The translations under genes and the position numbers were made by a program. Below are positions 1 to 62,300 of a stretch of DNA of 64,000 nt, piece by piece. Origin of the DNA: a virus. Location of the stretch: IMG/VR virus record IMGVR_UViG_3300025018_000100. One strand, 5' to 3'. The stretch's first letter is position 1. Every line of letters starts with the position of its first letter. Below the pieces are notes generated by a model. The model was not told the origin of the DNA. It saw nothing but the letters and a program-made list of their open reading frames with translations, and did not search any database.

Positions 1-77
1 ATAATAAAAAACCTAATATTAAATACAATAATTTAAATTTCACTGCGATCCTCTTGATGTTGATATATAATTTTTTC

Positions 78-111
78 AAAAAAAAAAGCGGGCTTTCCGA
101 GAAAAGCCCGC
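78..111 (-). terminator. Intrinsic terminator after Ro60 gene
   Basis: GCGGGCTTT/AAAGCCCGC inverted repeat (88-111), followed on the minus strand by a 10-nt U tract. Confidence 0.9.
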
Positions 112-124
112 CAAGTTAAACTAT

Positions 125-1657
125 TTAAAACGTATAGTTATTAACGGTTCTAATAATTTCATCAGACTTATCTGAAGTAGTCAGAAGATCAAAGACCTTG
201 TCTGACCAACCAGATAATTGAGTCCATCCACTAATTTCAGTAAATGGGTTAGCAGCGTAACCTTGTAGATCAAATAATACTTTGTTAGTACTATTATTTG
301 CTACTCCATAGTTCTCAGGCTCTAACTCGCTACGTCCATTCCAGCTTTTAAATCTATTGAATTGCATATCAGTAAATAACATAATAGTATTACCCGTTAG
401 TTTTGCATTTTTTGCGGCCTGCCAAGCAGAGTTAACATTAGTGCCATAACCAATTCTATTAACTTCATCAAGAATAGAAGTAGCAACACTTAGAGCAGTA
501 CTTCTATGACTACGTGGAGTAATTACTTTACCAATATCAGCGAAAGCTACAATCATGCTATCTCGTCCTCTACGAACACTAGCACTCCATACTGCTGATG
601 CATATACTGCTGCTAACTCTACCATACGAATAGTACTCTTATTAGAGATAGGGCTTGCCATGCTACCACTAACATCAACAACTAAGATAGTATCTCCTAA
701 GTCGGGAATATTATCAATAGAAATATCAAAAGCAGTTTCAAGAGCAGCTAATAGTTTACCATTAACCTTACTCGTATCATAACTAGAATATGATGTATAT
801 CCAATACTTCCACCTAATTCCTTATACGCAGTATAAAAACGATAAGGTAACTGTTTGCTTTTACGTACCTCTTCTTCATTAGTCAAACGACTAATTACTT
901 TAGTAAGATCAACATCGTGATTTACGAAGTTACGTAAGTTGCGAAGTAAAGCCATAAACCCAGTTTTTGGGTTGTTTGCTACTTCCTGCCAGTTTTCAGT
1001 GTTAGAACCTTCAGTAGAAATTTTAGTTTCCCAAGTATCTGGGGTTTTTAATTCGTCATTAATGATACGATTAAAAATAATATTTTGTTTGTGGTTTTGT
1101 GGTTTAGCATGAGTAATACGTAACACATCACGTAATTTTACTTCAGTTCCGCGATTATATTTAGCAAATTGATATTCATCAAACTTATAGAATGAATCTG
1201 CTACACCTTTCTTAATAGCTTGAGGTACTTTATTCTTGCTACCAAACTCACTAAGAGCGTAGGCATAAGTATCAGTAATTTCATCTGCACGGCTAATAGT
1301 CGCAGTTATAGCTTTACGTAGTAAAGGTAGTTTTACATTATGATTACGTAATTGCTTAGCAAGTATAACTTGTAAAGCAATACTAACAGTTCTCATATTC
1401 ATAACTTTACGAGCATAAACCCCTAATTTAGCTACGAAATCTGCTTTTCCTGTACGTACTAATTCACTGACAAGTTCATTCATACGTGTAATACGATCAT
1501 CACCTGATTCATAAAATTTTGGTTCTCCAAACATACAAGTTACAACTAGACGTACTAGCTCTAAATCTGCTGATTGTCGATATGCAGGTGCACCATTATA
1601 TGTAGTAGTTTCAGTTACTCTACCGCCGAAGCGCTGTGCTTTATTATTTAATTTCAT
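125..1657 (-). CDS. Ro60-like TROVE-domain RNA-binding protein with C-terminal vWA domain
   Basis: TROVE motifs (FYE, FDEYQFAKY, LRDVLRITHAKP, TPDTWET, MALLRNLRN, QLPYRF) and vWA MIDAS DVSGSM...TD. Confidence 0.92.
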   Translation of the reverse strand: MKLNNKAQRFGGRVTETTTYNGAPAYRQSADLELVRLVVTCMFGEPKFYESGDDRITRMNELVSELVRTGKADFVAKLGVYARKVMNMRTVSIALQVILAKQLRNHNVKLPLLRKAITATISRADEITDTYAYALSEFGSKNKVPQAIKKGVADSFYKFDEYQFAKYNRGTEVKLRDVLRITHAKPQNHKQNIIFNRIINDELKTPDTWETKISTEGSNTENWQEVANNPKTGFMALLRNLRNFVNHDVDLTKVISRLTNEEEVRKSKQLPYRFYTAYKELGGSIGYTSYSSYDTSKVNGKLLAALETAFDISIDNIPDLGDTILVVDVSGSMASPISNKSTIRMVELAAVYASAVWSASVRRGRDSMIVAFADIGKVITPRSHRSTALSVATSILDEVNRIGYGTNVNSAWQAAKNAKLTGNTIMLFTDMQFNRFKSWNGRSELEPENYGVANNSTNKVLFDLQGYAANPFTEISGWTQLSGWSDKVFDLLTTSDKSDEIIRTVNNYTF

Positions 1658-1705
1658 TTTTCTTCTCCTAAAGAATTTGCTGTTAGGTGAAAGAACTTTT
1701 TTTTC

Positions 1706-1783
1706 GGAGAGAAAAGGCGTTAAGGCTTTTTTATTGGTCGTGAAAGATAAATCTCTCGAAGAAATCCTTAACTACGCAGCTCC
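1706..1783 (-). ncRNA. Structured leader RNA upstream of Ro60, candidate Y-RNA-like element
   Basis: Minus strand GGAG..GCG[TAG]TTAAGG...CCTTAACGC..CTCC: 5' and 3' ends form a bulged stem around an A/U-rich loop; lies between a promoter and the Ro60 RBS. Confidence 0.55.
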
Positions 1784-1796
1784 TTCAATGTTTTTT

Positions 1797-1825
1797 ATTA
1801 TATCAATATTTTGAGAAATCACCAA
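1797..1825 (-). promoter_or_regulatory. Sigma70-type promoter for leader RNA and Ro60
   Basis: TTGGTG-N17-TATAAT with extended -10 TG. Confidence 0.7.
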
Positions 1826-1858
1826 GAAAAAATTAATTTTATTTTCTAGGTGGTTACT

Positions 1859-1896
1859 AAAAATGGGGGATATTTAAAGCCTTCCCCCAGAGGCTT
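1859..1896 (-). terminator. 3' element of hfa-like operon: terminator hairpin or H-type pseudoknot
   Basis: AAGCCT-C-TGGGGGA-AGGCTT-TAAATA-TCCCCCA-TTTTT. Confidence 0.65.
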
Positions 1897-1901
1897 AATC
1901 T

Positions 1902-2600
1902 TTAGTTACTGCGATTAACCTGAGATGTACTAGCACTAGCACCTACGCCCGAAACAGACTGAGATGCCTTACTAACACCACCGTTAAGCTGAACTCCTCC
2001 AGCAACTACAGTTGCAGTATTTACTGCAAAGTTACCAAGAGATAAGTTAGTCTGGTTATCACCGCCTACGTTCTTCTGACTAACAAAAGACCCTGCTCCA
2101 ACAGCAGCAACACTTTGTGTTGCCTTATTTGTTAGAAGATTAACCTGTCCACCAACAGCTACGATAGTTCCGGTATTAAGAGCGCCGTTTAATGCTGTGA
2201 CATTAAGTTGATCTTCGCCGGCATCACGGTTAGTCTGGCTCATAGAAGTCTGAGCACCTACGGCTAGAACGCTTTGAGTCGCCTTATTTACAAGTAAGTT
2301 ACCTTGAACTCCAGCAGCAACAATTAAAGCCTCGTTATAAGAACCATTAAGTCCTCCTAAGTTAGCTTGATTATCATCACCATCTACATTCTTCTGAGTA
2401 GTAGAAGAGACAGCGCCTACAGCTTCAACAGACTGAGAAGCTTTACCAACAAATAGATTCCCTTGTACACCAGGAACTAAGATAGTTCCAGTATTTACAG
2501 CAAAGTTACCTGCCTCAAGATTGACCTGATTATCGTCAGCCTGAACAGCAGTACTCATCAGAGCTAAAGCTGCAACTGTAGATAAAATTAAATTCTTCAT
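1902..2600 (-). CDS. Secreted N/Q/G-rich repeat protein (4 x 52-53 aa), HfaD/curlin-like amyloid candidate
   Basis: 21-aa signal peptide (..AVQA) plus four repeats NQxNLxxxNxxxNTxTI..GxQxNL..KA[ST]QSVxAVGA..QxN; directly downstream of the CsgG/HfaB gene. Confidence 0.75.
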   Translation of the reverse strand: MKNLILSTVAALALMSTAVQADDNQVNLEAGNFAVNTGTILVPGVQGNLFVGKASQSVEAVGAVSSTTQKNVDGDDNQANLGGLNGSYNEALIVAAGVQGNLLVNKATQSVLAVGAQTSMSQTNRDAGEDQLNVTALNGALNTGTIVAVGGQVNLLTNKATQSVAAVGAGSFVSQKNVGGDNQTNLSLGNFAVNTATVVAGGVQLNGGVSKASQSVSGVGASASTSQVNRSN

Positions 2601-2647
2601 ATATTATATACCTTTCTTTAAGTTAAGTTATAGTATCTTAGATACTA

Positions 2648-3427
2648 TTATTTTACGTTTTCGACGTTATCAAGTATAGCATTACACTCACTCATATCAA
2701 CATCGTCGTATAATTGGGAAGCCAGATTAAAACTTGCTTGTTGTAATACCGCTCTTGTAGCAATACCAACAGCTTCTCTCTGTTGTTCCCCAATGTCTAA
2801 TGTTACTAATGTATCACCGAAAAATCTACCAATACCCATACCATAATCTAGTGCTACAATTTGTTTATTAAGACTAGTCTGTGCTACAATCTCAGATGTA
2901 TTAGTATCTGTTAAGGTTAAGTCCATACCAACTATCATTCTATACTGTCTGGCCTTAGCTCCAACACCTGCCACGGTAACATCAAAACCACCACCAGGTA
3001 AGAAATCTAAAGTATTAATACTACCGGTAACATGATAATCAGAAGTTTTAATCTTTAAAACTCTTCCTAAGCTGTTTTCTAATAACATAACACTGAAATC
3101 ACGTCGGTTAACTACATTATCTGGTTGAATTTCAAACCAAGCATTTTGTGCAATATCTCCTGCCGCTTGAGTAACATAAAATCCGTTACCACCGTCGCCA
3201 TTTGCAAATTTACCTGTAGCATCTTTAATATCACCGACACCTACCCATGCTAAATCATGACCTTTTAACTTATCATAGGCACAAGATAAAACATCATCAT
3301 ACGGAGTATGAATATTTGTTACTGGAGGACCTTCCATAACATCCATATTTTTTGAAGGATTAGTACCTGCTGTACAAGCACTTAGAGCTAAAAGGCATCC
3401 GCCTGTTAATAATAATTTTCTTAACAT
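2648..3427 (-). CDS. CsgG/HfaB-family outer-membrane secretion lipoprotein
   Basis: Lipobox LSAC; GPPVT..TPY...LSC, VGVGDIKDATGK, VTQAA, VTGSINTLDF, VGMDLTLTDTNTSEIV, EAVGIATR as in CsgG/HfaB. Confidence 0.85.
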   Translation of the reverse strand: MLRKLLLTGGCLLALSACTAGTNPSKNMDVMEGPPVTNIHTPYDDVLSCAYDKLKGHDLAWVGVGDIKDATGKFANGDGGNGFYVTQAAGDIAQNAWFEIQPDNVVNRRDFSVMLLENSLGRVLKIKTSDYHVTGSINTLDFLPGGGFDVTVAGVGAKARQYRMIVGMDLTLTDTNTSEIVAQTSLNKQIVALDYGMGIGRFFGDTLVTLDIGEQQREAVGIATRAVLQQASFNLASQLYDDVDMSECNAILDNVENVK

Positions 3428-3440
3428 TATATAGCCTTTC

Positions 3441-3932
3441 TTATTGTGAATACTGATTAGTGATATTAGTTACTTCACTAGAAGCAGTAGTATCACCGTT
3501 AGTATTTGCATTATTGTTATCAGTTGCGTTATTTTGGTCGTTAGTAACTTCCACAGAATTACCTTTACCATCTACGTGAATAGAGGTATTATTAGTATTA
3601 CTCTGATCGTTTACTACTTGACTACCAATCGCAGTTGAATTATTTTGTTGGTCAATTTTAGTAGTACATCCACCACTAAATTTATTATCCCCACTATCAC
3701 ACTGAATATTAGTATCTCCAATAATAGTGCTTTGGTCGATATTATTAGTAGTATTATATCCACCATTTTTTTGCCATTCAATTAAGTCAGCTTGACTAAA
3801 AAGAACTGCTTTATCACTAGGACTCATAAATCCCCAGTTTGCATTCCAATCTGTAGAAGGTTGCGCATCACCCGCAATTGCAGGAATAGCAATCACGGAA
3901 GATAACAGAACCCCTAATAAAGTATATTTCAT
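3441..3932 (-). CDS. Secreted HfaA-like N/T-rich protein
   Basis: RBS AGAGG before ATG 3932; signal peptide (..PAIA); C-terminal STAIG..IHVDGKGNSVEV..NTNGDTTASS resembles the HfaA ATAIGN..N.VIV..Q.N.G.(V)TA pattern. Confidence 0.65.
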   Translation of the reverse strand: MKYTLLGVLLSSVIAIPAIAGDAQPSTDWNANWGFMSPSDKAVLFSQADLIEWQKNGGYNTTNNIDQSTIIGDTNIQCDSGDNKFSGGCTTKIDQQNNSTAIGSQVVNDQSNTNNTSIHVDGKGNSVEVTNDQNNATDNNNANTNGDTTASSEVTNITNQYSQ

Positions 3933-3985
3933 ATTTGTTCCTCTTTTCTTATATTTTAAATGAGTATCTCTCAATTAATATAACC

Positions 3986-4014
3986 ATTATATAATATATA
4001 ATAGCATCAATCAA
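3986..4014 (-). promoter_or_regulatory. Promoter of hfa-like operon
   Basis: TTGATT-N17-TATAAT. Confidence 0.7.
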
Positions 4015-4057
4015 CTAAAAAATTAATGCATATAGTTGTATCCTATAATATAATTCA

Positions 4058-4528
4058 CTAAGAATTTATCTTTATAAAATCTCTAAGAATCATAATAGTC
4101 TTACCTAATATATTTTTGCCTTTATATTCGGTATTTACACCCCAATAAATATCATTCCAAGTAGTAAATTCTACTAAAGTAGCATTACTTGTGGCTAATA
4201 GTCGTTCTATTAATTCTTTATTATATACAAATTTATGAAAACAAGTTAAAGCCATTTTATCATCTTTGATTTTATCCCAGTCATCACGTAATATTAATTG
4301 TCTACCACGTTTTTTAGCTATACCAGGTGTTGTGCTTTTTCTTATCCACTCACTACCTTTTTCGTCTACAGCTTTTAATGATTGAAATAAATGTTCTCCA
4401 CTTTTGTATATTTTACTATTATAAGTAATATCGGACTCGTAGAAATTACTTAACCAACCATAATCTCTGCTACTGCTAGAAAAATATATTACTTTATCAA
4501 AAAGATTAGGATTCCAATCGTTTTGCAT
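4058..4528 (-). CDS. NADAR (YbiA-like) family protein
   Basis: WLSNFY, EHLFQSLK, AKKRGR, LRDDW, LLAT...LVE, DIYWG, GKNILG. Confidence 0.9.
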   Translation of the reverse strand: MQNDWNPNLFDKVIYFSSSSRDYGWLSNFYESDITYNSKIYKSGEHLFQSLKAVDEKGSEWIRKSTTPGIAKKRGRQLILRDDWDKIKDDKMALTCFHKFVYNKELIERLLATSNATLVEFTTWNDIYWGVNTEYKGKNILGKTIMILRDFIKINS

Positions 4529-5096
4529 GTTTACATACCTCTAACCAATTTTTAACACGAAATACGTCTAAACCTTCCCATGCAGTATTATAACCTCTAT
4601 CCAATAAGAAAGAGGTAGCACCTTCTTCAGCACCTACTTGCGCCCATTTAACATGATCTTCTACCCAAAAAGCAATATCATATTCATTAACATACTTATT
4701 AAGGAGAGGTCGTTTATCTCCTTTCAACCCAATACAATGAACTTCCTTGAAAAAAGAAAACCCAAAGTATTCAGATATGTTAGCAAGTCTATTTTCGATA
4801 GCTTGGTCACTATCATGCCATTTGGTAATCGCAATAATATCCCAACCAGTTTCTTTTAAATAATTCATAGCAAAGATAGCGTCAGAATGTAACTCACAAG
4901 TAGCCCCAAAAGAAGACTCACTATACTCAGCTACAATAGCATCTGATAACTCAGGAGTCCAACCCATAATTTGATGCATCCGTTCATGCTCTTTATATTC
5001 TGGAGAAATCCACCTTTTATCTTTACAAAATCTCATAAAAGAGTTTCTAAAATCTAGAAAGGTTCCGTCTACATCAGTTAGTAATACTTTTTTCAT
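4506..5096 (-). CDS. HAD-superfamily 5'(3')-nucleotidase-like protein (T4 30.2-like)
   Basis: LTDVDGT motif I, WVEDH motif, RGYN, RVKNW. Confidence 0.75.
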   Translation of the reverse strand: MKKVLLTDVDGTFLDFRNSFMRFCKDKRWISPEYKEHERMHQIMGWTPELSDAIVAEYSESSFGATCELHSDAIFAMNYLKETGWDIIAITKWHDSDQAIENRLANISEYFGFSFFKEVHCIGLKGDKRPLLNKYVNEYDIAFWVEDHVKWAQVGAEEGATSFLLDRGYNTAWEGLDVFRVKNWLEVCKHAKRLES

Positions 5097-5124
5097 TTAT
5101 ATACCTTTAAATAGTTAAGGCAGC

Positions 5125-5310
5125 TTATTCAGCTGCCTTATTTTTATTGAATGTTGGTTGTGTTTTTGAAATATTTACAAACCCACCACGACTAGGGTGA
5201 GCGTAGATAACTTGATAACTATCACAAGTATCTTTTAATAAATTAGCTATATGATTAGCTGCATCATGAATAGTAGTAAAATTACCTTTATCAGTGATTT
5301 TTACTTTCAT
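5125..5310 (-). CDS. Hypothetical protein
   Basis: ATG ORF, co-oriented with neighbours. Confidence 0.55.
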   Translation of the reverse strand: MKVKITDKGNFTTIHDAANHIANLLKDTCDSYQVIYAHPSRGGFVNISKTQPTFNKNKAAE

Positions 5311-5330
5311 ATTTTATCTTTCTATAAAAT

Positions 5331-5418
5331 TGGAGGATAGAGAGGGATTCGAACCCTCGGAACCTTTCGGTTCACTTCCTTAGCAGGGAAGCACGATCAG
5401 CCGCTCTGTCACCTATCC
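5331..5418 (-). tRNA. tRNA-Ser(GCT)
   Basis: Cloverleaf, anticodon arm CTTCC-CT GCT AA-GGAAG, long variable arm, GGTTCGAATCC, encoded CCA. Confidence 0.95.
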
Positions 5419-5807
5419 GTTAATAATTTTTCTACCGTGTGTTAGTGTTATACATTTTCCTGTAAGCACATCGTGTTCAGTCCAAGTTTTTGCCCAAGGA
5501 CCTCTAATAGAAATACACCAACTAGTTTTAGTTGCTATAACTCTATGATTTTTTGATCTAGGAGTAAATTTTGGTTTTAATGATCTAGCGTATAAATAGG
5601 TTGATCCATCGTAATTTTCTTCTAATAATTCACCTTTTAAAAACCAAGTATAAGCATTAAACGCATGAGTATGATAAGTTTCTCTTTTACCTTTATTAAA
5701 TTTAAGTAAAACAATAGAAAAAAGGGATTTAATTTCAAGTAGATAATAACCATCTACTGGAGAGTCTGGCCCACCATCTTTTAATTTTTTAATTTTTTAA
5801 AAAGCAT
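5413..5807 (-). pseudogene. Cupin-like phage protein (KDGG..HTHAFN..RGPW) split by an 8-nt tandem duplication; absent from ORF track
   Basis: RBS AGGAGA, ATG CTT TTT AAA AAA TTA AAA AAT TAA; the -1 frame continues for ~120 codons (KDGGPDSPVDGYYLLEIKSLFSIVLLKF...YHTHAFNAYTW...RGPW). Confidence 0.8.
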
Positions 5808-5824
5808 TTTTTCTCCTAGTAAAT

Positions 5825-5901
5825 TGGTGCCCACGGAAGGATTCGAACCCTCAACCTACGGAGTAGAAATCCGTTGCTCTGTCCAATTGAGCTACGTGGG
5901 C
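5825..5901 (-). tRNA. tRNA-Arg(TCT)
   Basis: ACGGA-TT TCT AC-TCCGT, canonical T arm, CCA. Confidence 0.95.
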
Positions 5902-5969
5902 GTTAACTTTTATCTTAAAAGTATTTTAACATCTTTAATAAAATATAATTATTTATTTTTCACACAAAT

Positions 5970-6045
5970 TGGCAGAGGTACTAGGATTTGAACCCAGACT
6001 TGCGGTTTTGGAGACCGTCGTGCTATCCGTTAACACTATACCCCT
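5970..6045 (-). tRNA. tRNA-Trp(CCA)
   Basis: ACGGT-CT CCA AA-ACCGC (A27.C43 mismatch), G73, CCA. Confidence 0.93.
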
Positions 6046-6157
6046 ATAAATTTTATTTACCGACTACTGCAAAACTGCTTTACAAAAAGCATTAACTACG
6101 CCTTTAGTCATATTAGTATGATCAACAATTAATTTCACTTTATTTACTTTTTTAAAT

Positions 6158-6233
6158 TGGTGCTGTTACAAGGAGTCGAACCATGATTTCCGGAGTACAA
6201 AACCGGTGTGTTATCCATTAACACTATAACAGC
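6158..6233 (-). tRNA. tRNA-Thr(TGT)
   Basis: GCTGTTA/TAACAGC acceptor; CCGGT-TT TGT AC-TCCGG; CCA. Confidence 0.88.
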
Positions 6234-6317
6234 TTAGTTTCTTTAATAAAGTTTTCCTTATTTATAGTTAATTATAACAAATAATATAGTAGCCCACAAT
6301 ATAAAAGTTAAAAAATT

Positions 6318-6394
6318 TGGAGGTTCTACCGAGATTCGAACTCGGAACTTCGCATTACGAAAGCGGTATGTTAGCCAGTTATCACTACAGAACC
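6318..6394 (-). tRNA. tRNA with CGT anticodon (nominal Thr), non-canonical body
   Basis: GGTTCTG/TAGAACC acceptor, U73, CCGCT-TT CGT AA-TGCGA with two mismatches, perfect T arm, CCA. Confidence 0.8.
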
Positions 6395-6398
6395 ATTT

Positions 6399-6484
6399 TG
6401 GAGGAAGGTGGAGTAATCGAAACCCTATCATTTGCACGATACCACGGAGTTCAAATCCGCTTTGACACCTTGTCGGCACCTTCC
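6399..6484 (-). tRNA. 8/4-type tRNA-Ser(TGA)
   Basis: 8-bp acceptor GGAAGGTG/CACCTTCC, 4-bp T stem GGGT/ACTC, tiny D arm GACA-AGG-TGTC, long variable arm, GCGGA-TT TGA AC-TCCGT. Confidence 0.85.
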
Positions 6485-6485
6485 A

Positions 6486-6824
6486 TTATTTTTTAGGACC
6501 ATTTTTATTAGGTTGTTTTACACTACCCCCTTTTCCGGCCCATAAATCTTTTCTAGCCCAATAATTAGCACTAAATTTATCGTCTTTTCCTTTTATACCT
6601 GCACTTCTTGCTAGATAACTTTTTCTAGCTTTATCACTATAGTTATGCCCATAACCCGTAGCGCCGTAATGTACTAATTTAATTTCGTCGCCTTTTTTAG
6701 CTAAAACCATTTTTTTCTTGCCTGGTCTATCGCTTTTTTTAGGTTTATTAAAACCATCAAAAGTTTTACCAGAATACTCAATTTTACCGTTAGATGTTCT
6801 TTTTACGTCTTTTGCTTTCGCCAT
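6486..6824 (-). CDS. Conserved basic phage protein, probable nucleic-acid binding
   Basis: Lys-rich; KLVHYG...RKSYLAR...SANYWARK pattern typical of a widespread viral family. Confidence 0.75.
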   Translation of the reverse strand: MAKAKDVKRTSNGKIEYSGKTFDGFNKPKKSDRPGKKKMVLAKKGDEIKLVHYGATGYGHNYSDKARKSYLARSAGIKGKDDKFSANYWARKDLWAGKGGSVKQPNKNGPKK

Positions 6825-6839
6825 TTCCTTTCTCTCAAT

Positions 6840-6866
6840 AAAAAAGCGCCTTCAAAGGCGCTTTTA
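6840..6866. terminator. Intrinsic terminator (probably bidirectional)
   Basis: AAAAGCGCCT-TCAA-AGGCGCTTTT. Confidence 0.85.
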
Positions 6867-6895
6867 TGTTTCTAAATTAGAACAAAGCAGTACCT

Positions 6896-6961
6896 TCAAA
6901 TAGTAGAACTATTGTCCCCTACTCTTAACCAACTCGAAATCATAGTTTCTGTGCTATCCAT
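6896..6961 (-). CDS. 21-aa micro-ORF (MDSTETMISSWLRVGDNSSTI) with its own promoter and RBS
   Basis: TTGCTA-N17-TATTAT promoter (6990-7018), AGGAG RBS, terminator downstream. Confidence 0.4.
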   Translation of the reverse strand: MDSTETMISSWLRVGDNSSTI

Positions 6962-7038
6962 AATTTTCTCCTAATTTGAATTATTATGTATAATATCATA
7001 AGTTTAAGTAATTAGCAAATTAAAAATTTAATAATTTA

Positions 7039-7188
7039 CTATTTTTCATATTTATAATTTTTGCTTAATGATCCATCTTTATTGTAAATACCTTGGTCAA
7101 CCAAACATTTATTAGCAATTTCTACAGACATAGTATTTGCTCTAGTAAATGCAATCATAGCTTGTTTAAATGTTTCATTTTTATTCAT
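7039..7188 (-). CDS. Small hypothetical protein (49 aa, GIYNKDGSL motif)
   Basis: ATG overlaps stop of upstream gene; below ORF-track size cutoff. Confidence 0.6.
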   Translation of the reverse strand: MNKNETFKQAMIAFTRANTMSVEIANKCLVDQGIYNKDGSLSKNYKYEK

Positions 7189-7670
7189 TACAAACTCCAA
7201 TAAGTAACGTTGTCTGGACTTCTTTGAGTAATTGCATACACTATATCATAAGGAGCATTACCTAAACCTACTCCAGGCATAGCTGAGTGAAATTTAAAAT
7301 CTTTACTTCTTTCTGCAGCTATATTAAGGTGTTCTACGCTATTACTAATTAAAGAAATTGAGCTATTGTCTTTATAATGTCTTTTAGTTTGTAGTAACCC
7401 AATACCTGTTCTGTTACCATATTTAATATCCCAAGACTCGTTAAATAGGAGAAGAAAGAAATAATTTTCATTCTCGACATTATATTTTCTAATCAATTTA
7501 CCTGCTAAAGTAGGTAAATTAACAAAATAATTAGCTCCCTCCAAAGCTACACCTGCCCCCATAACTAAATTTCCATTTTTCTTTATAACATTATTAGTAG
7601 TTAAGCAAAAAATCTTATTACCGGGCTTTGTTAACTCATTAAACATATTACCTTTACTATAATTAGCCAT
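7188..7670 (-). CDS. Macrodomain-like ADP-ribose-binding/hydrolase protein
   Basis: LTTN..KKNG.LVMGAGVA, TKRHY, MPGVGLG. Confidence 0.75.
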   Translation of the reverse strand: MANYSKGNMFNELTKPGNKIFCLTTNNVIKKNGNLVMGAGVALEGANYFVNLPTLAGKLIRKYNVENENYFFLLLFNESWDIKYGNRTGIGLLQTKRHYKDNSSISLISNSVEHLNIAAERSKDFKFHSAMPGVGLGNAPYDIVYAITQRSPDNVTYWSL

Positions 7671-8352
7671 TTTTATATCCTGTTAATAATAAAATATTTC
7701 TATTAGTATAACTACTATTAAAAGTCCAGTGAGGTGTAGTTTTCCAATTAATTTTACATATATCACCGGCTGACCATGATAAATATTTTTCTTCGTTCTC
7801 TTCGTTTAAATAACCAATACCTTGTCCTGGTACTTGATCTTCTAAGAAAATAAAGTAAGACTCTAGATTTGCTTTTCTAGAAATTTGACGCCTAACAGGA
7901 TCAAAACCGCATGCAGGATCATAATTTTCATATAGTTTAGTGTAGTGATCATAATGAATACCTTTAATATCTCCAGGTTTTTGAGTATGCAAACCTATAA
8001 CATATTCACCTCCCTCAAAACCTAACTGTTTTGCATATGATTGTTCTGAAATTTTATATCTATCAAAACCATAACTAAAATTATTTTTAAAATCAGCCTC
8101 TTCACCTTTAGGAAGATATCCTGGAGTATGGTATTCCCAATTTTTAAATTCAGGTATTTTTAACGATTTTAGATTTTTATCAATTACTACGGAACCTATT
8201 ATATCTAAACCCCTAACAGAAAAAGAGCCGATATCTTTATGATGTTCCCATAAAACTTCACCTAATTCATAATAACTAGGAACTTCATCTAATAATCTTA
8301 GATAATCCCTTAAGGTATTAATAGAATACCATTTATTTATATAATCATACAT
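7663..8352 (-). CDS. 2OG-Fe(II)/AspH-like dioxygenase
   Basis: QKPG...HYD, W.AGD, PHWTFN...R.ILLLTG. Confidence 0.65.
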   Translation of the reverse strand: MYDYINKWYSINTLRDYLRLLDEVPSYYELGEVLWEHHKDIGSFSVRGLDIIGSVVIDKNLKSLKIPEFKNWEYHTPGYLPKGEEADFKNNFSYGFDRYKISEQSYAKQLGFEGGEYVIGLHTQKPGDIKGIHYDHYTKLYENYDPACGFDPVRRQISRKANLESYFIFLEDQVPGQGIGYLNEENEEKYLSWSAGDICKINWKTTPHWTFNSSYTNRNILLLTGYKNG

Positions 8353-46947: not shown

Positions 46948-47011
46948 TTCTTGACTACTGCTTAAATATATAATATAATTTAATTTATAGAAATTATTAT
47001 TGGAGAAATAT

Positions 47012-49273
47012 ATGACTAAATTAGCATTTGTTTTACCTGCTAAGACGGGTAATGCAAAAGAGCCTTTTAATGAGTATGCACATGGATTAGATTATGATAT
47101 TCATTTTTTATGCTCTCAAGAGAAGGACAAAATACTTAAAAAAGATATTGACTTAGATATGTCAATACTCAATGCTTACGATGCATTAGTTCTTGTAGGA
47201 GCAGAAAGTTTAAAATATGTAGCTGGACTTACAGGTATTATTAAATATAACGGTATGTTCGTGGAGAAAAAATATATACCATTAATTCATCCTAATATGA
47301 CTGTTTTTAAACCTCAATATAAAGTTGAGATTGTAAAAGCTTTTGACAATATTAGAAAAATTGTAAGTGGTGAAATAGATAGTACTAATAATAAAAAACG
47401 CTATCAGTATATAACTACTAAAGAAGAGTTTGAAGAGTATTTAGGTGAATTAGAATTAGCAGATGAAATTGTAGTCGATATTGAAACTACAAGTTTATCC
47501 CCAAGAGACGGTAATATCTTGGGAGTAGTTTTTAGTACAAAACCACATGAAGGTATTTTCGTAGATATTGATGTAATTAAACATTTTGTTTCTGAATTAC
47601 AAGAAGTGTTTAATAATGCTACTATTATATTTCATAATGGTAAATTCGATATTAAGTTCCTAGCTTACGAATTAGGTTTTACCTTTAATAAGGTAGAAGA
47701 TACTATGCTATTACATTATGTTTTAGATGAGAGCGTTGGTACTCACGGACTAAAACCCTTAGCAATGAAATATACTGATTTAGGTGATTATGATAGAGAA
47801 CTAGACGAGTATAAAAAGAAATTCTGTAGAGAAAATAAAATAAAATTAACTGATTTCAATTATGGACTATTTCCAATTGATATTCTAGGCACTTATGCTT
47901 GTAAAGATGGTGATGCAACATTCCAAATTTTTAAAAAGTTTAAGCCTTTAGTAGATAATAATCCTAGATTTAAGAAACTATATGAGACAATATTGTTACC
48001 TGCTAGTTATGCTTTACGAGTATTAGAGGATAATGGTGGGCCGTTAAATAAAGACCAACTAACTGTTCTAGAAGAGAGTTATCTTATTGATATTGAAGAG
48101 GCTAAAGAAGAGATTTGGCGTCACCCTGCTGTATTAAGATATGAAAGAATCTATAATAAAGTCTTCAATCCTAATAGCGTTCAGCAGTTAAGAGAAGTAT
48201 TTTTTAATATTTTAAAACTACAACCTATTAAAAAAACTGACACAGGTGCATTTTCTACGGACGCAGAAACTCTAGAAACTTTAGATCACCCGTTAGCAGA
48301 AGCTATTTTAGATTTACGTAAAAAAAGTAAAATCTATGGTACCTATATTGCAGGTATTAAAAGAGGTTTAGACGAAGACGGTAGACTTAGAAGTAACTTC
48401 AATATTCACGGTACAACTAGTGGACGACTAAGTAGTAGTGGTGTTATTAACTATCAAAATATTCCTAGAGACAATAAAGACATTAAGAAATTATTCAAAG
48501 CTCGTCCTGGGTATAAGATTGTTCAATGTGACTTAGGAACCGCAGAAGTTTATTATGCTGCTGTATTATCTGGTGATAAATTCTTACAAAAAGCGTTTAC
48601 AGATAAATTAGATTTCCACAGTTATATAGCAAAACAAATGTTTAATTTGCCTTGTGAAATTGACGCAATTAAAACTGAGTATAAAAACTATAGACAGATT
48701 AGTAAAGCTATTACTTTCGGTATTATGTATCAGGCTGGACCTGCTAAAATAGCTGAAACTGTAAATAATGATGCTACTCCGGGAAATGAAATCTCTGTTA
48801 ATGAATCTAAACAACATATTAATAAATATTTCAGAGAAGCTAAACAACTTAAACATTTTATTGATTTAAGTAATGCTCAAATTACAGATAACGCCTATAT
48901 TTATAGTTTTTTTGGTAGAAAAAGAAGACTACCAGAAAGTAGAAGCCCTAATCCAGGTATTGCTAAACACGCAATTAGAAGTGGTGTTAACTTTCTTATT
49001 CAAAGTGTAGCTAGTGATATTAATATATTAGGAGTAATTGATTTAGTTAATTGGATTGAAGAAAATAATTATCAAAAAGATATTATGCCTTTTACTGTGG
49101 TTCATGACTCTATTGTATCAGAAGTTAAAGACGAATTAATAGATGAATATGTTAAAGTTACTAAGCAATTTTTACAAAAAGATAGAGGCTTAAGTATTCC
49201 AGACTGTCCTATTAACGTAGATTTTGAAGTAGGTACAAGTTGGGGTGAATTAGAAGATTATAAAAAGGTATAG
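47012..49273 (+). CDS. Family A DNA polymerase with 3'-5' exonuclease
   Basis: DIET, HNGKFD, YACKD, TTSGRLSS, DLGTAE, RQISKAITFGIMY, VHDS; TTGACT-N17-TATAAT promoter at 46951-46979. Confidence 0.95.
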   Translation: MTKLAFVLPAKTGNAKEPFNEYAHGLDYDIHFLCSQEKDKILKKDIDLDMSILNAYDALVLVGAESLKYVAGLTGIIKYNGMFVEKKYIPLIHPNMTVFKPQYKVEIVKAFDNIRKIVSGEIDSTNNKKRYQYITTKEEFEEYLGELELADEIVVDIETTSLSPRDGNILGVVFSTKPHEGIFVDIDVIKHFVSELQEVFNNATIIFHNGKFDIKFLAYELGFTFNKVEDTMLLHYVLDESVGTHGLKPLAMKYTDLGDYDRELDEYKKKFCRENKIKLTDFNYGLFPIDILGTYACKDGDATFQIFKKFKPLVDNNPRFKKLYETILLPASYALRVLEDNGGPLNKDQLTVLEESYLIDIEEAKEEIWRHPAVLRYERIYNKVFNPNSVQQLREVFFNILKLQPIKKTDTGAFSTDAETLETLDHPLAEAILDLRKKSKIYGTYIAGIKRGLDEDGRLRSNFNIHGTTSGRLSSSGVINYQNIPRDNKDIKKLFKARPGYKIVQCDLGTAEVYYAAVLSGDKFLQKAFTDKLDFHSYIAKQMFNLPCEIDAIKTEYKNYRQISKAITFGIMYQAGPAKIAETVNNDATPGNEISVNESKQHINKYFREAKQLKHFIDLSNAQITDNAYIYSFFGRKRRLPESRSPNPGIAKHAIRSGVNFLIQSVASDINILGVIDLVNWIEENNYQKDIMPFTVVHDSIVSEVKDELIDEYVKVTKQFLQKDRGLSIPDCPINVDFEVGTSWGELEDYKKV

Positions 49274-59336: not shown

Positions 59337-62300
59337 ATGTTAGCACCTGGATATATTCCATTAAAGTTTCATTTAAATGAGGCATTCAAAACTAAATTAA
59401 GAAATAAACCTGTAAAGTGGGGTTTTGGTGGGTTAAGTGAATTTACTTTTTACAGAACATATTCTCGCCCTAAAGAAGATGGTTCCTTAGAAACATGGGC
59501 AGATTGTGTATTAAGAGTTATTGAAGGAATGTTTACTATTCTTAAAACTAATGCTCAATACTCTCACATTCCTTGGGAAGTGGATAAAGCAGAGAAGCTT
59601 GCCGAGGAAGCTGCTGAGAGAATGTTTGACTTTAAATGGACTCCCCCTGGACGAGGTCTATGGGTTATGGGTACCGATATGGTATGGGATAAGGGCGGAG
59701 CTGCCTTAAATAACCCTCTCCATGAAGATACCAAAATTCTTACCGAGGAATATGGTTGGATTGCTTTGAAAGAGATTGAAGGGCAAAACGTAAGAGTATT
59801 ATCTAAGCTACGTAGTAAGCAAAAATTTACTGGAGGAGCAGGGTTTGTGGATGCTTATATTTCTACTAAAGAAATGCAGCCTTCTTATAAAATTACTATT
59901 GAAACTCTACTAGGTAATATTAAAGAAATTATAGCATCTGAAAACCATAGATGGTTTGTTATTACTGATAAAAAAAATAGTTTTGAAAACCGAATTACTA
60001 CAGATTATCTTACTAATAAACATTATTTGCCAAGAGCTACACCCACTAAGCAGTACGAACCTAGCTTTGCAGGTTACTGTCATGGGTTTTTCTTCGGCGA
60101 TGGTACACGTAGTAATGGAGAATTACATCAATTCACAGAAGATAATAAAAAAATATTAAATAGTATATTTCCTGAAATTAGTTTTAGAGAAAATATCTAT
60201 AAATTACCTTCAGGTTTAGAAGCTAAGATAGTAAAAAACCTTCCTAAAGCTTGGTCTAAAGTTCCTGAGGGAGATTATGCTACAGATAAGAAGTATGTCT
60301 TTGGATTTTTAGCGGGATATTTTGCTGCAGATGGTTCTGTAGGGACTACCTATAGAATTGCCTCTTCAAAGATAGAAGAACTAGAAAAGGTCCAAGAATT
60401 ATTTGAATATGTAGGTATTGAAACTAAAATCATTAAAGATAGCTCTAATTCAACCAATTTTAGTGAAGATAGAGATTTATACCAATTAAATATTTGTAAA
60501 CATGATTTAAATGAGAAATTCTTCTTAAAAGAAAGTCACTTACATCATTGGGTAGAAAATAAATCTAAAATAAAAAGACCACTCCATAAAGTAATATCTA
60601 TAGAAAAACTAGAAGAACTGCAGCCTGTTTTATGTGCTGTAGTTCCAGAACACGAAAACTTTGTTATTGACGGGTTTACTGTAACTTCTAATTGTGCTTT
60701 CGTAACAACTAAAAATATTGGTACTGAGTGGAGTAAACCTTTTGGATTCTTAATGGATATGAGTATGTTAGGAGTTGGTGTTGGATTTGATACAAAAGGG
60801 GCTGGTAATATTGATATATACAAACCTGAAGGTGATCCAGAAGTAATTACTGTGGAAGATAGTAGAGAGGGGTGGGTAGACTTAATATGTACTCTTATCG
60901 ACAGCTATATGGACCCGGATGGAGTTCCTATTATTCCAGATACTCATTTAGTTAGAGAATATGGAACTCCTATTAAAGGATTTGGAGGAGTAGCTAGCGG
61001 CCCAGAACCTTTAGTACAAGGTTTCTACGGAATCATGGATATTCTTAATAAAAGAGCTAATAGTGACGATAATTATATTACTAGTACCGATATTGTTGAT
61101 ATCATGAATATTATTGGAAAAATTGTTGTAGCAGGAAACGTTAGAAGATGTTTACCTGAAGATACACTAATTCATACAAAAACAGGATTAAAAGAAATAA
61201 AAAATATTATTCCTGGAGAAGAAGTTTACACTTCCAAGGGTGTTAGTAAAGTATCGGAATTAGTATATCAAGGAGAGCAAGAAGTTATTTCTATAAATAC
61301 TCAGCTAGGTAGTTTTAAATGTACTCCAAAACATAAAATAGCTGTCTTAGACTCTACAAATACTTATTATTGGACCCAAGCCCAGTATCTAAAGACTGGA
61401 GATAGATTAGTATTTCCAGAACATGAAATAGAAGGGATAAAAACTAGTTTACCTAGTTGGGAATATAATAAAACAGAAAAATCAACAACATGTAAAGATA
61501 TTACAATACCTGAATTAAATAAAGACGTATCTTGGTTACTAGGATTATTTCACGGAGACGGATACACATATCCTAATTTTGAAAAAAATGGATATAATGC
61601 TTATATTAGTATTGCATGTGATAATGTTAATTATCCAAGTATTACAGTTAAAGCAAAAGAAACACTAGCTAGTTTTGGACCTAACTTACATTTTTGTGAT
61701 ATACCAGATTCAGAAAAAGATAAAAGTTATAAAATTAGAATACAATCTAAACAATTATCTTGGTATTTTTCTAAGTTTAAAGAAGCACATAAATGTATAA
61801 GTGTGCCTGATTTTATTCTTCAAGGTACTAAAGAAATTAGAGCTTCGTATCTAGCAGGCCTTTTTGATGCTGATGGTTCTAGTATAGACAGAACTACTAT
61901 AGCTGTTTATACAGTTTATGAAAAGTATGCGAAACAAATACAAGCATTGTATGCTAGTCTAGGTATTCCTACACGTATAAAAGAAAATTGGCAAAAAATA
62001 TATTTAGTTTCTATCATAGGACAGGATACAATAGAAAAATTTGAAAAACTAATAGCTATTCACTCTGAAAAGTACCATAATTATAATAAGACTAATAGGA
62101 GTCAAAATGATTTTGGGTATCCGAGTGCTTGGATAGACAAAGAAGTAGTAAATTATGGTAAATCTTGGACTCCTCAACAAGAGCAAATGACTTACCATAA
62201 ATTCAAATCTTTAAAAGGAGATAGTAATTTAATTCCTATTAAAGTAGAATCTATAGAATATAATAACGAAGTAGTAAATACATATGATATTAGTGTTCCA

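What the first reader, a model, noticed from the sequence alone, without database searches (positions are those of the whole stretch)
1902..2600. Amyloid-like repeat architecture: four in-register 52-53-aa N/Q-ladder repeats
Seen: after a 21-aa signal peptide the whole mature protein is four repeats (53+53+52+53 aa) with fixed Q, N, N, N, Q, N, KA[ST]QSV, VGA, Q, N positions. It has no Cys and only one Pro. Repeats 1 and 4 share GNFAVNT; repeats 2 and 3 share LNG and NKATQSV. Known: curlin (~22 aa) and FapC (~37 aa) repeats use N/Q ladders in stacked beta-arcs. Inference: a longer-period beta-solenoid with open ends able to polymerise, possibly a distinct functional-amyloid family.
Basis: partly seen in the sequence, partly recalled or inferred. 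Interest (0 to 1): 0.75.

Follow-up and report, generated by a model that had tools for sequence, protein, structure and literature searches.

The report
Phage-encoded curli-like fibre subunit candidate
A large T5-like phage carries a three-gene export module whose last gene encodes a secreted protein of four 53-residue Asn/Gln-ladder repeats, predicted to fold like curli and Fap amyloid subunits; it is probably pushed out through the phage's own CsgG-type outer-membrane channel to build a fibre or anchor on the infected cell.

Summary
ORF 1902-2600 (-) encodes a 232-aa protein: a 21-aa signal peptide, then exactly four 52-53-aa repeats (46-58% identical, z 13-21 against shuffles), no Cys, one Pro.

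Across 46 repeat units from 13 homologues, Q4, N6, N15, Q25, G41 and N50 are invariant. N27 is present in 45 of 46.

AlphaFold2 gives a confident all-beta model (pLDDT 85) with no caps. Its best structural matches are the FapC and CsgA fibrils and flattened beta-helices, but the scores are middling.

The main new evidence is context. The gene is the third in a compact operon: a small secreted protein, a CsgG/HfaB-family lipoprotein, then the repeat protein. In five of six independent contigs the repeat gene sits directly after a CsgG-like gene, and those with readable flanks look like phage.

The family is very small (11 representatives among 1.84 billion) and none was found in 80 bacterial hfaB-like loci. 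It has no detectable sequence relation to curlin, FapC or HfaD.

Complete phage curli (type VIII secretion) modules were already described in pelagiphages in 2022. This is therefore a new variant of a known kind: a different channel branch with a new, longer-period substrate.

Fibre formation is inferred, not shown.

The parts
1902..2600 (-). Gene for the 232-aa secreted repeat protein. Signal-peptide codons 2538-2600; repeat 1 2379-2537; repeat 2 2220-2378; repeat 3 2064-2219; repeat 4 1905-2063; stop 1902-1904.
   Evidence: repeats and conservation; AF2 pLDDT 85, all-beta; FapC, CsgA and beta-helix matches; very small family.
2648..3427 (-). CsgG/HfaB-family outer-membrane lipoprotein (259 aa, lipobox L-S-A-C). 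It is the presumed secretion channel and ends 47 nt upstream of the repeat gene.
   Evidence: Pfam CsgG 5.5e-11, 42.6 bits against a cutoff of 20.8. NCBIfam HfaB 1.6e-26 but 93 bits against a cutoff of 300. The family profile matches E. coli CsgG structures at 8e-16 over chain residues 36-230 of example chain 4uv2_A. PHROG 20175 at 1.9e-24.
3441..3932 (-). Small secreted protein (163 aa from the ATG; a TTG-extended ORF reaches 3974). It has a conserved N-terminal W-x-F motif plus a helix, and an N/T/S/D-rich tail. It is a conserved partner of the channel, possibly an adaptor or nucleator. It ends 13 nt before the channel gene.
   Evidence: Homologues lie directly upstream of the CsgG/HfaB-like gene in L001, L090, L092, L009, CcrColossus, Domovoi, L095 and L010. 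No Pfam, NCBIfam or PDB family. AF2 model is poor (pLDDT 40) with one helix at 38-55. Match to the E. coli CsgF N-terminus is weak (hhalign E 0.045).
3986..4014 (-). Promoter-like site (TTGATT, 17-nt spacer, TATAAT) upstream of the small gene. Candidate operon promoter.
   Evidence: 10 of 12 matches. The number of such sites in the region is not above shuffles, so this is weak evidence.
1859..1889 (-). Terminator-like hairpin (UGGGGGA ... UCCCCCA followed by UUUUU), 13 nt after the stop codon of the repeat gene.
   Evidence: One search gives the fold, but the energy is no better than shuffles (z -0.09). Read directly.

Best explanation
The repeat protein is the secreted substrate of a phage-borne curli-like (type VIII, CsgG-family) export module.

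Proposed sequence of events:
1. All three products cross the inner membrane by Sec.
2. [quoted passage not shown]
3. The Cys-free, Gly/Ala/Ser/Asn/Gln-rich repeat protein passes through it unfolded.
4. Outside, it folds into a flat, uncapped beta-solenoid. Its core is lined by small residues and invariant Asn/Gln ladders, probably with two rungs per 53-aa repeat.
5. With no caps at either end, it stacks head to tail into a fibre or a surface-anchored polymer. The small W-x-F protein may nucleate or tether it.

For the phage, the result is a remodelled surface of the infected cell: aggregation or attachment ('sibling capture'), or masking against superinfection.

Shown here: the repeats, the conservation, the CsgG-family neighbour, the conserved gene order and the confident beta-solenoid-type model. 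Inferred: export through the channel, polymerisation, and the benefit to the phage.
For: - Repeat architecture and invariant Q/N/G positions.
- AF2 pLDDT 85, pTM 0.78, all-beta from residue 25 to 230 with no extra domains. The ESM Atlas's own model is also fairly confident (pTM 0.69).
- Best structural matches: FapC fibril (Foldseek E 6.6e-5, prob 0.85); CsgA fibril (Z 7.3 and 7.1); SufB/SufD flattened beta-helix (Z 5.4-5.9, rmsd 3.1-3.5 A over 128-139 residues); Pontibacter CsgA and FapC (Z 5.1).
- The upstream gene is CsgG-family.
- The repeat gene lies directly after a CsgG/HfaB-like gene in the window, L001, L090, L092 and L089. These contigs range from 30 to 49% GC.
- The same three-gene layout, with an HfaD-like third gene, occurs in Caulobacter phage CcrColossus, Brevundimonas phages, a 499-kb phage contig and Stellaceae. 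HfaB is needed for surface display of HfaA and HfaD in Caulobacter (PMC6707917).
- One relative (L090) carries a second, divergent paralogue right after the first, like a major/minor subunit pair.
- GC3 of the module equals that of the rest of the phage, so it is a long-resident phage gene set.
- Complete curli modules in pelagiphages set a precedent (PMC9599517).
Against: - There is no experimental or transcript evidence.
- Structural similarity to CsgA and FapC is only middling (rmsd about 8 A, TM 0.19-0.25). Such Z values are common for repeat folds.
- The AF2 alignment is shallow (12 sequences) and model coordinates could not be inspected, so the rung topology and the open ends are read from the DSSP string only.
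- One family member (P0003; L003-L006) has no CsgG-like gene within 8 kb.
- There is no equivalent of the CsgA N-terminal targeting segment, nor of CsgE.
- The small partner protein cannot be assigned to CsgF, CsgB or HfaA.
- The host is unknown.
Confidence: 0.55

Rival explanations
1. It is a non-polymerising surface adhesin or anchor: a functional analogue of HfaD. It would be exported by the HfaB-like channel and stay as a monomer or small complex at the outer membrane, for example to tether a polysaccharide made by the phage's large glycan-synthesis island, or to coat the cell. It would not be an amyloid-type fibre.
For: - It occupies the gene position that HfaD-like proteins hold after hfaB-like genes in CcrColossus, Domovoi, L095 and L010.
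- The channel scores better against HfaB than against classical CsgG.
- Protein-language-model neighbours are clusters labelled 'Adhesin', plus one cluster in which 70% of members carry the HfaD Pfam domain (scores 0.85-0.89, leads only).
I did not check it.
Against: - There is no sequence or profile similarity to HfaD-like proteins.
- The protein is nothing but repeats, with no anchoring or capping domain.
- HfaD itself forms high-molecular-weight complexes with HfaA (PMC6707917), so the boundary between this rival and the best explanation is soft.
Confidence: 0.27
2. It is a secreted or periplasmic beta-solenoid that works independently of the neighbouring channel. Examples would be a receptor-masking or superinfection-exclusion protein, an ice- or mineral-binding protein, or a decoy. 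The CsgG-like pore would then serve another role, such as the permeability or lysis timing proposed for the Melnitz phage.
For: - P0003 is encoded without an adjacent channel gene.
- Flat beta-solenoid antifreeze proteins appear among the structural matches (Z 5.0-5.2).
- A channel-only role for phage CsgG has been proposed in the literature (PMC9004378).
Against: - Tight gene linkage in 5 of 6 contexts across very different phage genomes.
- There are no Thr-x-Thr arrays typical of ice-binding faces. The conserved positions are alternating small and Asn/Gln residues, typical of a solenoid core, rather than a surface site.
Confidence: 0.13
3. It is not a real protein-coding feature: a chance ORF or low-complexity artefact.
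For: None beyond the biased composition (V, A, G, N, S, L make up 70% of residues).
Against: - Homologues at 41-58% identity exist in at least five other distinct contigs, with the repeat register and invariant residues conserved.
- It has a signal peptide, a ribosome-binding-site-like AAGAAAGG upstream and a confident fold prediction.
Confidence: 0.01

Closest known systems
Curli (type VIII secretion): CsgA/CsgB subunits exported by CsgG, including the complete curli modules described in pelagiphages (PMC9599517, PMC7029224, PMC9004378)
   Same: - A secreted, Cys-free, Asn/Gln-ladder repeat protein encoded next to a CsgG-family lipoprotein channel.
- An uncapped beta-solenoid-type model whose best VIA match is the CsgA fibril (Z 7.1-7.3).
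- Carried by a phage as an accessory module.
   Different: - The repeat unit is 52-53 aa, not 19-23.
- No Curlin_rpt Pfam hit, and no profile similarity to E. coli CsgA or CsgB.
- The channel belongs to the HfaB-like branch. tblastn at E<=1e-3 matched only Brevundimonas and Caulobacter phage records; whether pelagiphage or Melnitz genomes are in that collection was not checked.
- No recognisable CsgF, CsgE, CsgC, FecR or adenylate cyclase.
- The phage is a distant T5-like virus from an aquifer sample, not a pelagiphage.
Holdfast anchor HfaA-HfaB-HfaD of Caulobacter, and the hfaB-like trios of Caulobacter and Brevundimonas jumbo phages (CcrColossus gp241-243)
   Same: - Three-gene layout: small secreted protein, HfaB/CsgG-like lipoprotein, secreted repeat protein with a period of about 50 aa.
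- The small protein is homologous to CcrColossus gp241 and its relatives.
- The channel's best NCBIfam hit is HfaB.
   Different: - The third protein has no detectable similarity to HfaD-like proteins.
- The channel scores far below the HfaB equivalog cutoff (93 against 300 bits).
- The small protein does not match the HfaA model.
- No holdfast polysaccharide genes are known for the unknown host.
FapC functional amyloid of Pseudomonas (cryo-EM structures 9u4u, 9nqd)
   Same: - Best Foldseek match (E 6.6e-5, prob 0.85).
- An imperfect-repeat, Asn/Gln-rich, secreted beta-solenoid subunit with repeats longer than curlin's.
   Different: - No sequence similarity.
- TM only 0.19-0.25.
- FapC is exported by the FapF barrel within a fapA-F operon, none of which is present here. 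FapC also has long variable linkers, whereas this protein has none.

Membership tests
Curlin (CsgA/CsgB, Pfam Curlin_rpt) | Tandem 19-23-aa repeats matching the curlin consensus (Ser-x5-Gln-x-Gly-x-Gly-Asn-x-Ala-x3-Gln) | tested here: not met
   The period is 52-53 aa. No Pfam hit at E<=0.1. hhalign of the unit profile against E. coli CsgA and CsgB gives nothing. The profile against all PDB sequences gives no hit at E<=1.
Curlin (CsgA/CsgB, Pfam Curlin_rpt) | Encoded with, and exported by, a CsgG-family channel | tested here: inconclusive
   Gene adjacency to a CsgG-family gene holds in 5 of 6 contexts. Export itself cannot be tested with these tools.
Curlin (CsgA/CsgB, Pfam Curlin_rpt) | Strand-turn-strand beta-solenoid that polymerises into amyloid fibres | tested here: inconclusive
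   The AF2 model is all-beta and its top VIA match is the CsgA fibril, at Z 7.1-7.3 but rmsd about 8 A. Polymerisation cannot be tested here.
FapC (Pseudomonas functional amyloid) | Sequence homology to FapC repeats, and a fapA-F operon with the FapF exporter | tested here: not met
   No PDB-sequence hit to FapC. The neighbours are a CsgG-like gene and a small W-x-F protein, not fap genes. Only a fold-level Foldseek match exists (E 6.6e-5, TM 0.19-0.25).
HfaD (holdfast anchor protein, NCBIfam NF037936) | Match to the HfaD model or to HfaD-like proteins | tested here: not met
   No NCBIfam hit at E<=0.1. hhalign of the family and unit profiles against HfaD-like alignments from phages and bacteria matches only the signal peptide. 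CcrColossus gp243 and bacterial neighbours do hit HfaD weakly.
HfaD (holdfast anchor protein, NCBIfam NF037936) | Gene placed next to hfaB, with a small secreted partner | tested here: met
   The window's gene order is small, HfaB-like, repeat protein. This is the same order as in CcrColossus, Domovoi, L095 and L010, which carry HfaD-like third genes.
CsgG family (the neighbouring gene 2648-3427) | Pfam CsgG domain above the gathering score, an N-terminal lipobox, and alignment to solved CsgG | tested here: met
   42.6 bits against a cutoff of 20.8. Lipobox L-S-A-C read. The profile matches E. coli CsgG chains at 8e-16 over chain residues 36-230 of example chain 4uv2_A.
HfaB equivalog (NCBIfam NF037935; the neighbouring gene) | Score above the curated equivalog cutoff (300 bits) | tested here: not met
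   93 bits. It belongs to the HfaB-like branch but is not an HfaB equivalog.

The most novel reading that the evidence does not exclude
This would be the founding member of a phage-restricted family of functional-amyloid-type fibre subunits. Its 53-aa composite repeat, with two non-identical rungs, has no cellular homologue among about 15 billion predicted proteins. It is exported by a phage-encoded HfaB-branch CsgG channel together with a new small adaptor protein. Diverse large phages would then build their own extracellular fibres on infected cells, independently of the curlin-based modules of pelagiphages.
Probability: 0.35. Interest if true: 0.75.

Novelty: new variant of a known kind. 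Interest (0 to 1): 0.58.

Why it matters
Phage curli-type secretion modules are abundant in the ocean, yet what they secrete and why is unresolved ('sibling capture', pore-only and lysis-timing ideas; PMC7029224, PMC9004378, PMC9599517).

This locus offers a compact three-gene module that can be cloned. Its substrate is obvious, short, Cys-free and confidently modelled, and it has no sequence relation to curlin, FapC or HfaD. Two things follow:
- It gives amyloid structural biology a new repeat class with a 53-aa unit to test.
- It shows that the CsgG/HfaB channel has been paired with interchangeable substrates: this family, HfaD-like proteins, or Asp/Asn-rich paralogues in a Nitrospinaceae genome bin. 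That makes substrate recognition by CsgG-type channels directly testable.

If the protein does not polymerise, it is still a new family of phage-encoded surface proteins.

Tried and rejected
- Pfam, NCBIfam and PHROGs scans of the repeat protein: no family.
- Family profile against all PDB sequences: no hit at E<=1.
- tblastn of the repeat protein against 50,697 phage records: no match.
- Megablast of window 1-8000 against phages: no match.
- hhalign against HfaD-like proteins, E. coli CsgA/CsgB, and the three Nitrospinaceae paralogues: only signal-peptide matches.
- Unit-profile search of longer proteins: no relatives beyond the known family.
- IMG/VR scan: only one viral contig, identical to L002.
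- BFVD fold search: nothing convincing. Two 'Curlin associated' proteins of uncultured phages appear at E 0.009-0.09.
- Small partner protein: no Pfam, PDB or HfaA match. AF2 model is unusable (pLDDT 40). The CsgF N-terminal resemblance is only hhalign E 0.045. All its homologues are unnamed.
- Extra similarity between the terminal repeats (as with CsgA R1/R5) is not family-wide.
- A search for an internal half-repeat within the 53-aa unit gave only a weak V-x-A-x-G match at offset 18 (P 0.009). The number of rungs per unit therefore stays unresolved.
- The terminator hairpin is no more stable than shuffles.
- No whole genome is held for this window.
- No RNA holder is listed among sequencing runs. 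The only full holder is an aquifer metagenome that may be the source itself.

Full report
**Observation**

The minus-strand ORF 1902-2600 encodes 232 residues. Residues 1-21 have the form of a Sec signal peptide ending V-Q-A. This was read from the sequence; no predictor was available.

The remaining 211 residues divide without remainder into units of 53, 53, 52 and 53. Self-comparison peaks at offset 53 (33.5% identity), with echoes at 105/106. The four units are 46-58% identical pairwise, and their local alignment scores lie 13-21 standard deviations above shuffled controls.

**Family**

A full HMMER pass over 1.84 billion representative proteins found 11 representatives, 10 of them at E<=1e-10. 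The word-indexed search of 5.8 billion clusters found four, counting the window's own protein. A profile of the 53-aa unit found nothing further among longer proteins.

The unit model detects 3-5 complete units of 51-53 aa in each full-length member. Across 46 complete units from 13 proteins:
- Q4, N6, N15, Q25, G41 and N50 are invariant, and N27 is 45/46.
- G23, Q35, V37, A42, Q48, A21, A33 and A39 are nearly invariant.

The conserved positions alternate and are small (A, G, V) or Asn/Gln. That is what a thin two-sheet solenoid core with polar ladders would need.

No member has a non-repeat domain before or after the repeats, except inserts in P0010 and P0011. Pfam, NCBIfam, PHROGs and PDB-sequence searches give nothing.

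**Structure**

AlphaFold2 on the 12-sequence family alignment gives mean pLDDT 85 and pTM 0.78. The model is all-beta from residue 25 to 230. Each unit shows strands at unit positions 4-9, 12-15, 19-28 and 32-51; the last contains the invariant G41-A42. The ESM Atlas holds its own fairly confident model (pTM 0.69).

Structural matches:
- Foldseek's only PDB match below E 0.001 is the FapC fibril (E 6.6e-5, prob 0.85, but TM 0.19-0.25).
- The exhaustive VIA search ranks the CsgA fibril first (Z 7.3, rmsd 8.2 A over 98 residues).
- Next come the flattened beta-helices of SufB/SufD (Z 5.4-5.9, rmsd 3.1-3.5 A over 128-139 residues), FapC and Pontibacter CsgA (Z 5.1), a flat antifreeze solenoid, RTX beta-rolls and the CAP beta-helix.

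Everything on the list is a beta-solenoid, but the tool's own guidance is that Z below 8 may reflect only a common arrangement. I conclude the fold class (uncapped flattened beta-solenoid) is well supported. Specific kinship to CsgA or FapC is not.

Four long strand segments per unit suggest two strand-turn-strand rungs per 53-aa unit, about 26 aa each and eight in all.

**Context**

This is the decisive addition. Forty-seven nucleotides upstream on the same strand lies a 259-aa lipoprotein (lipobox L-S-A-C). It passes the Pfam CsgG threshold, and its best NCBIfam hit is the holdfast channel HfaB, at 93 bits against a cutoff of 300. Its family profile aligns to solved E. coli CsgG at 8e-16.

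Thirteen nucleotides upstream of that is a 163-aa secreted protein with a conserved N-terminal W-x-F motif and an N/T/S/D-rich tail. A promoter-like site precedes the trio and a GC-stem/U-run hairpin follows it. Neither is statistically remarkable.

The same order, small protein then CsgG/HfaB-like then repeat protein, recurs with family members in L001/L002, L090/L091 and L092. In the 940-bp contig L089 the repeat gene is preceded by the C-terminal end of a CsgG-like ORF. That makes five of six independent contexts, in genomes from 30 to 49% GC. Only P0003 (L003-L006) lacks a channel gene within 8 kb. In L090 a second, divergent two-unit paralogue follows the first.

None of 80 bacterial hfaB-like loci contains a member of the repeat family. 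All member contexts with readable flanks look like phage: DNA ligase, HNH, clamp loader, RNA ligase. One is an IMG/VR viral genome.

**The window is a phage**

It is 30% GC and has six tRNAs. It carries a family-A DNA polymerase closest to T5-like phages (42% identity), plus helicases, ribonucleotide reductase, NAD ligase and SbcC. The contig is about 200 kb. The only full holder among sequencing runs is an aquifer metagenome, which may be the source. GC3 of the three genes (0.19-0.25) equals that of the rest of the phage (0.14-0.24). The module is therefore long resident, and its higher GC only reflects Gly/Ala/Val codons.

**Relation to known systems**

*Holdfast anchor.* Caulobacter phage CcrColossus (gp241-243), Brevundimonas jumbo phages, a 499-kb phage contig (L095) and a Stellaceae genome all have the same trio. 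There the third gene is HfaD-like, with A-V-G-N repeats of about 47-50 aa and weak NF037936 hits. The window's small protein is homologous to theirs. In Caulobacter, HfaB is required for surface display of HfaA and HfaD, and these form SDS- and heat-resistant multimers (PMC6707917).

Profile-profile comparisons nevertheless find no similarity between the window's family and HfaD-like proteins, E. coli CsgA/CsgB, or the three Asp/Asn-rich paralogues that follow the closest bacterial channel (54% identity, a Nitrospinaceae genome bin). The picture is a conserved channel-plus-small-protein pair with interchangeable substrates.

*The small protein.* It matches neither the HfaA model nor CsgF convincingly. 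The resemblance of W-x-F/FQFRNP to the CsgF N-terminus scores only E 0.045. Its AF2 model is unusable apart from one helix.

*Novelty.* Phage CsgG/CsgF were reported in pelagimyophages (PMC7029224) and in the Melnitz methylophage (PMC9004378). A 2022 study explicitly identified complete phage type VIII modules, including curlin-repeat fibre genes with transcript evidence (PMC9599517). A phage-encoded amyloid export system is thus a known kind.

What is new here:
- the HfaB-like channel branch in a T5-like phage;
- a substrate family with a 53-aa composite repeat that is unrelated in sequence to curlin, FapC and HfaD;
- the apparent restriction of that family to phages.

**Mechanism and confidence**

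I put about 0.7 on the protein being a surface-exposed substrate of the adjacent channel. I put about 0.4-0.45 on it forming true fibre polymers. The combined best explanation is given 0.55, with a monomeric HfaD-like anchor as the main rival.

The benefit to the phage (aggregation or attachment of infected cells, or shielding from superinfection) is inference from the literature on phage curli and from the location of the operon among accessory genes.

Noticed in passing
L009:3444-6967 (Nitrospinaceae genome-bin contig, 106 kb): This is the closest cellular relative of the window's channel (54% identity) and small protein. It is followed by three tandem paralogous secreted proteins of about 200 aa, rich in Asp/Asn, which replace the 53-aa repeat family. 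hhalign finds no relation to the window's protein. They look like an alternative substrate set for the same channel type.
   Followed up: partly
L090:6930-7673 (and L091:4880-5623): A second, divergent family member (P0015, 247 aa) lies directly after the main repeat gene. It has only two recognisable units, separated by Gly/Thr/Pro-rich spacers. It could be a minor or nucleator subunit.
   Followed up: partly
L001:8940-10226: A subtilisin-like S8 peptidase with a C-terminal hydrophobic anchor lies immediately downstream of the repeat gene in this related phage contig. It might process or release the secreted protein.
   Followed up: no
L095:2394-5309 (IMG/VR contig of 499,572 bp): A very large, high-GC phage contig carries a trio of small protein, HfaB-like and HfaD-like (475 aa) genes. 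Its small protein begins with FQFRNP after the signal peptide, the same six residues as the mature N-terminus of E. coli CsgF. The overall similarity is not significant.
   Followed up: partly
window 2630-2648: A perfect 9+9-nt palindrome (ATAGTATCT T AGATACTAT) sits between the stop codon of the channel gene and the ribosome-binding site of the repeat gene. It may be an mRNA hairpin that sets the relative expression of the two genes.
   Followed up: no
window 47000-49273: The family-A DNA polymerase is closest to those of T5-like Salmonella and Escherichia phages (about 42% identity over 90%). This places the roughly 200-kb phage as a distant T5-like virus.
   Followed up: partly
BFVD entries A0A6J5M3R0 and A0A6J5TA70: Uncultured Caudovirales proteins annotated 'Curlin associated' appear as weak fold matches. 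Curlin-repeat proteins therefore already exist in phage databases.
   Followed up: no
window 59337-63653: The 1438-aa ribonucleotide reductase ORF also matches an endonuclease family in its middle (residues 832-905). This suggests an intein or a homing-endonuclease insertion.
   Followed up: no
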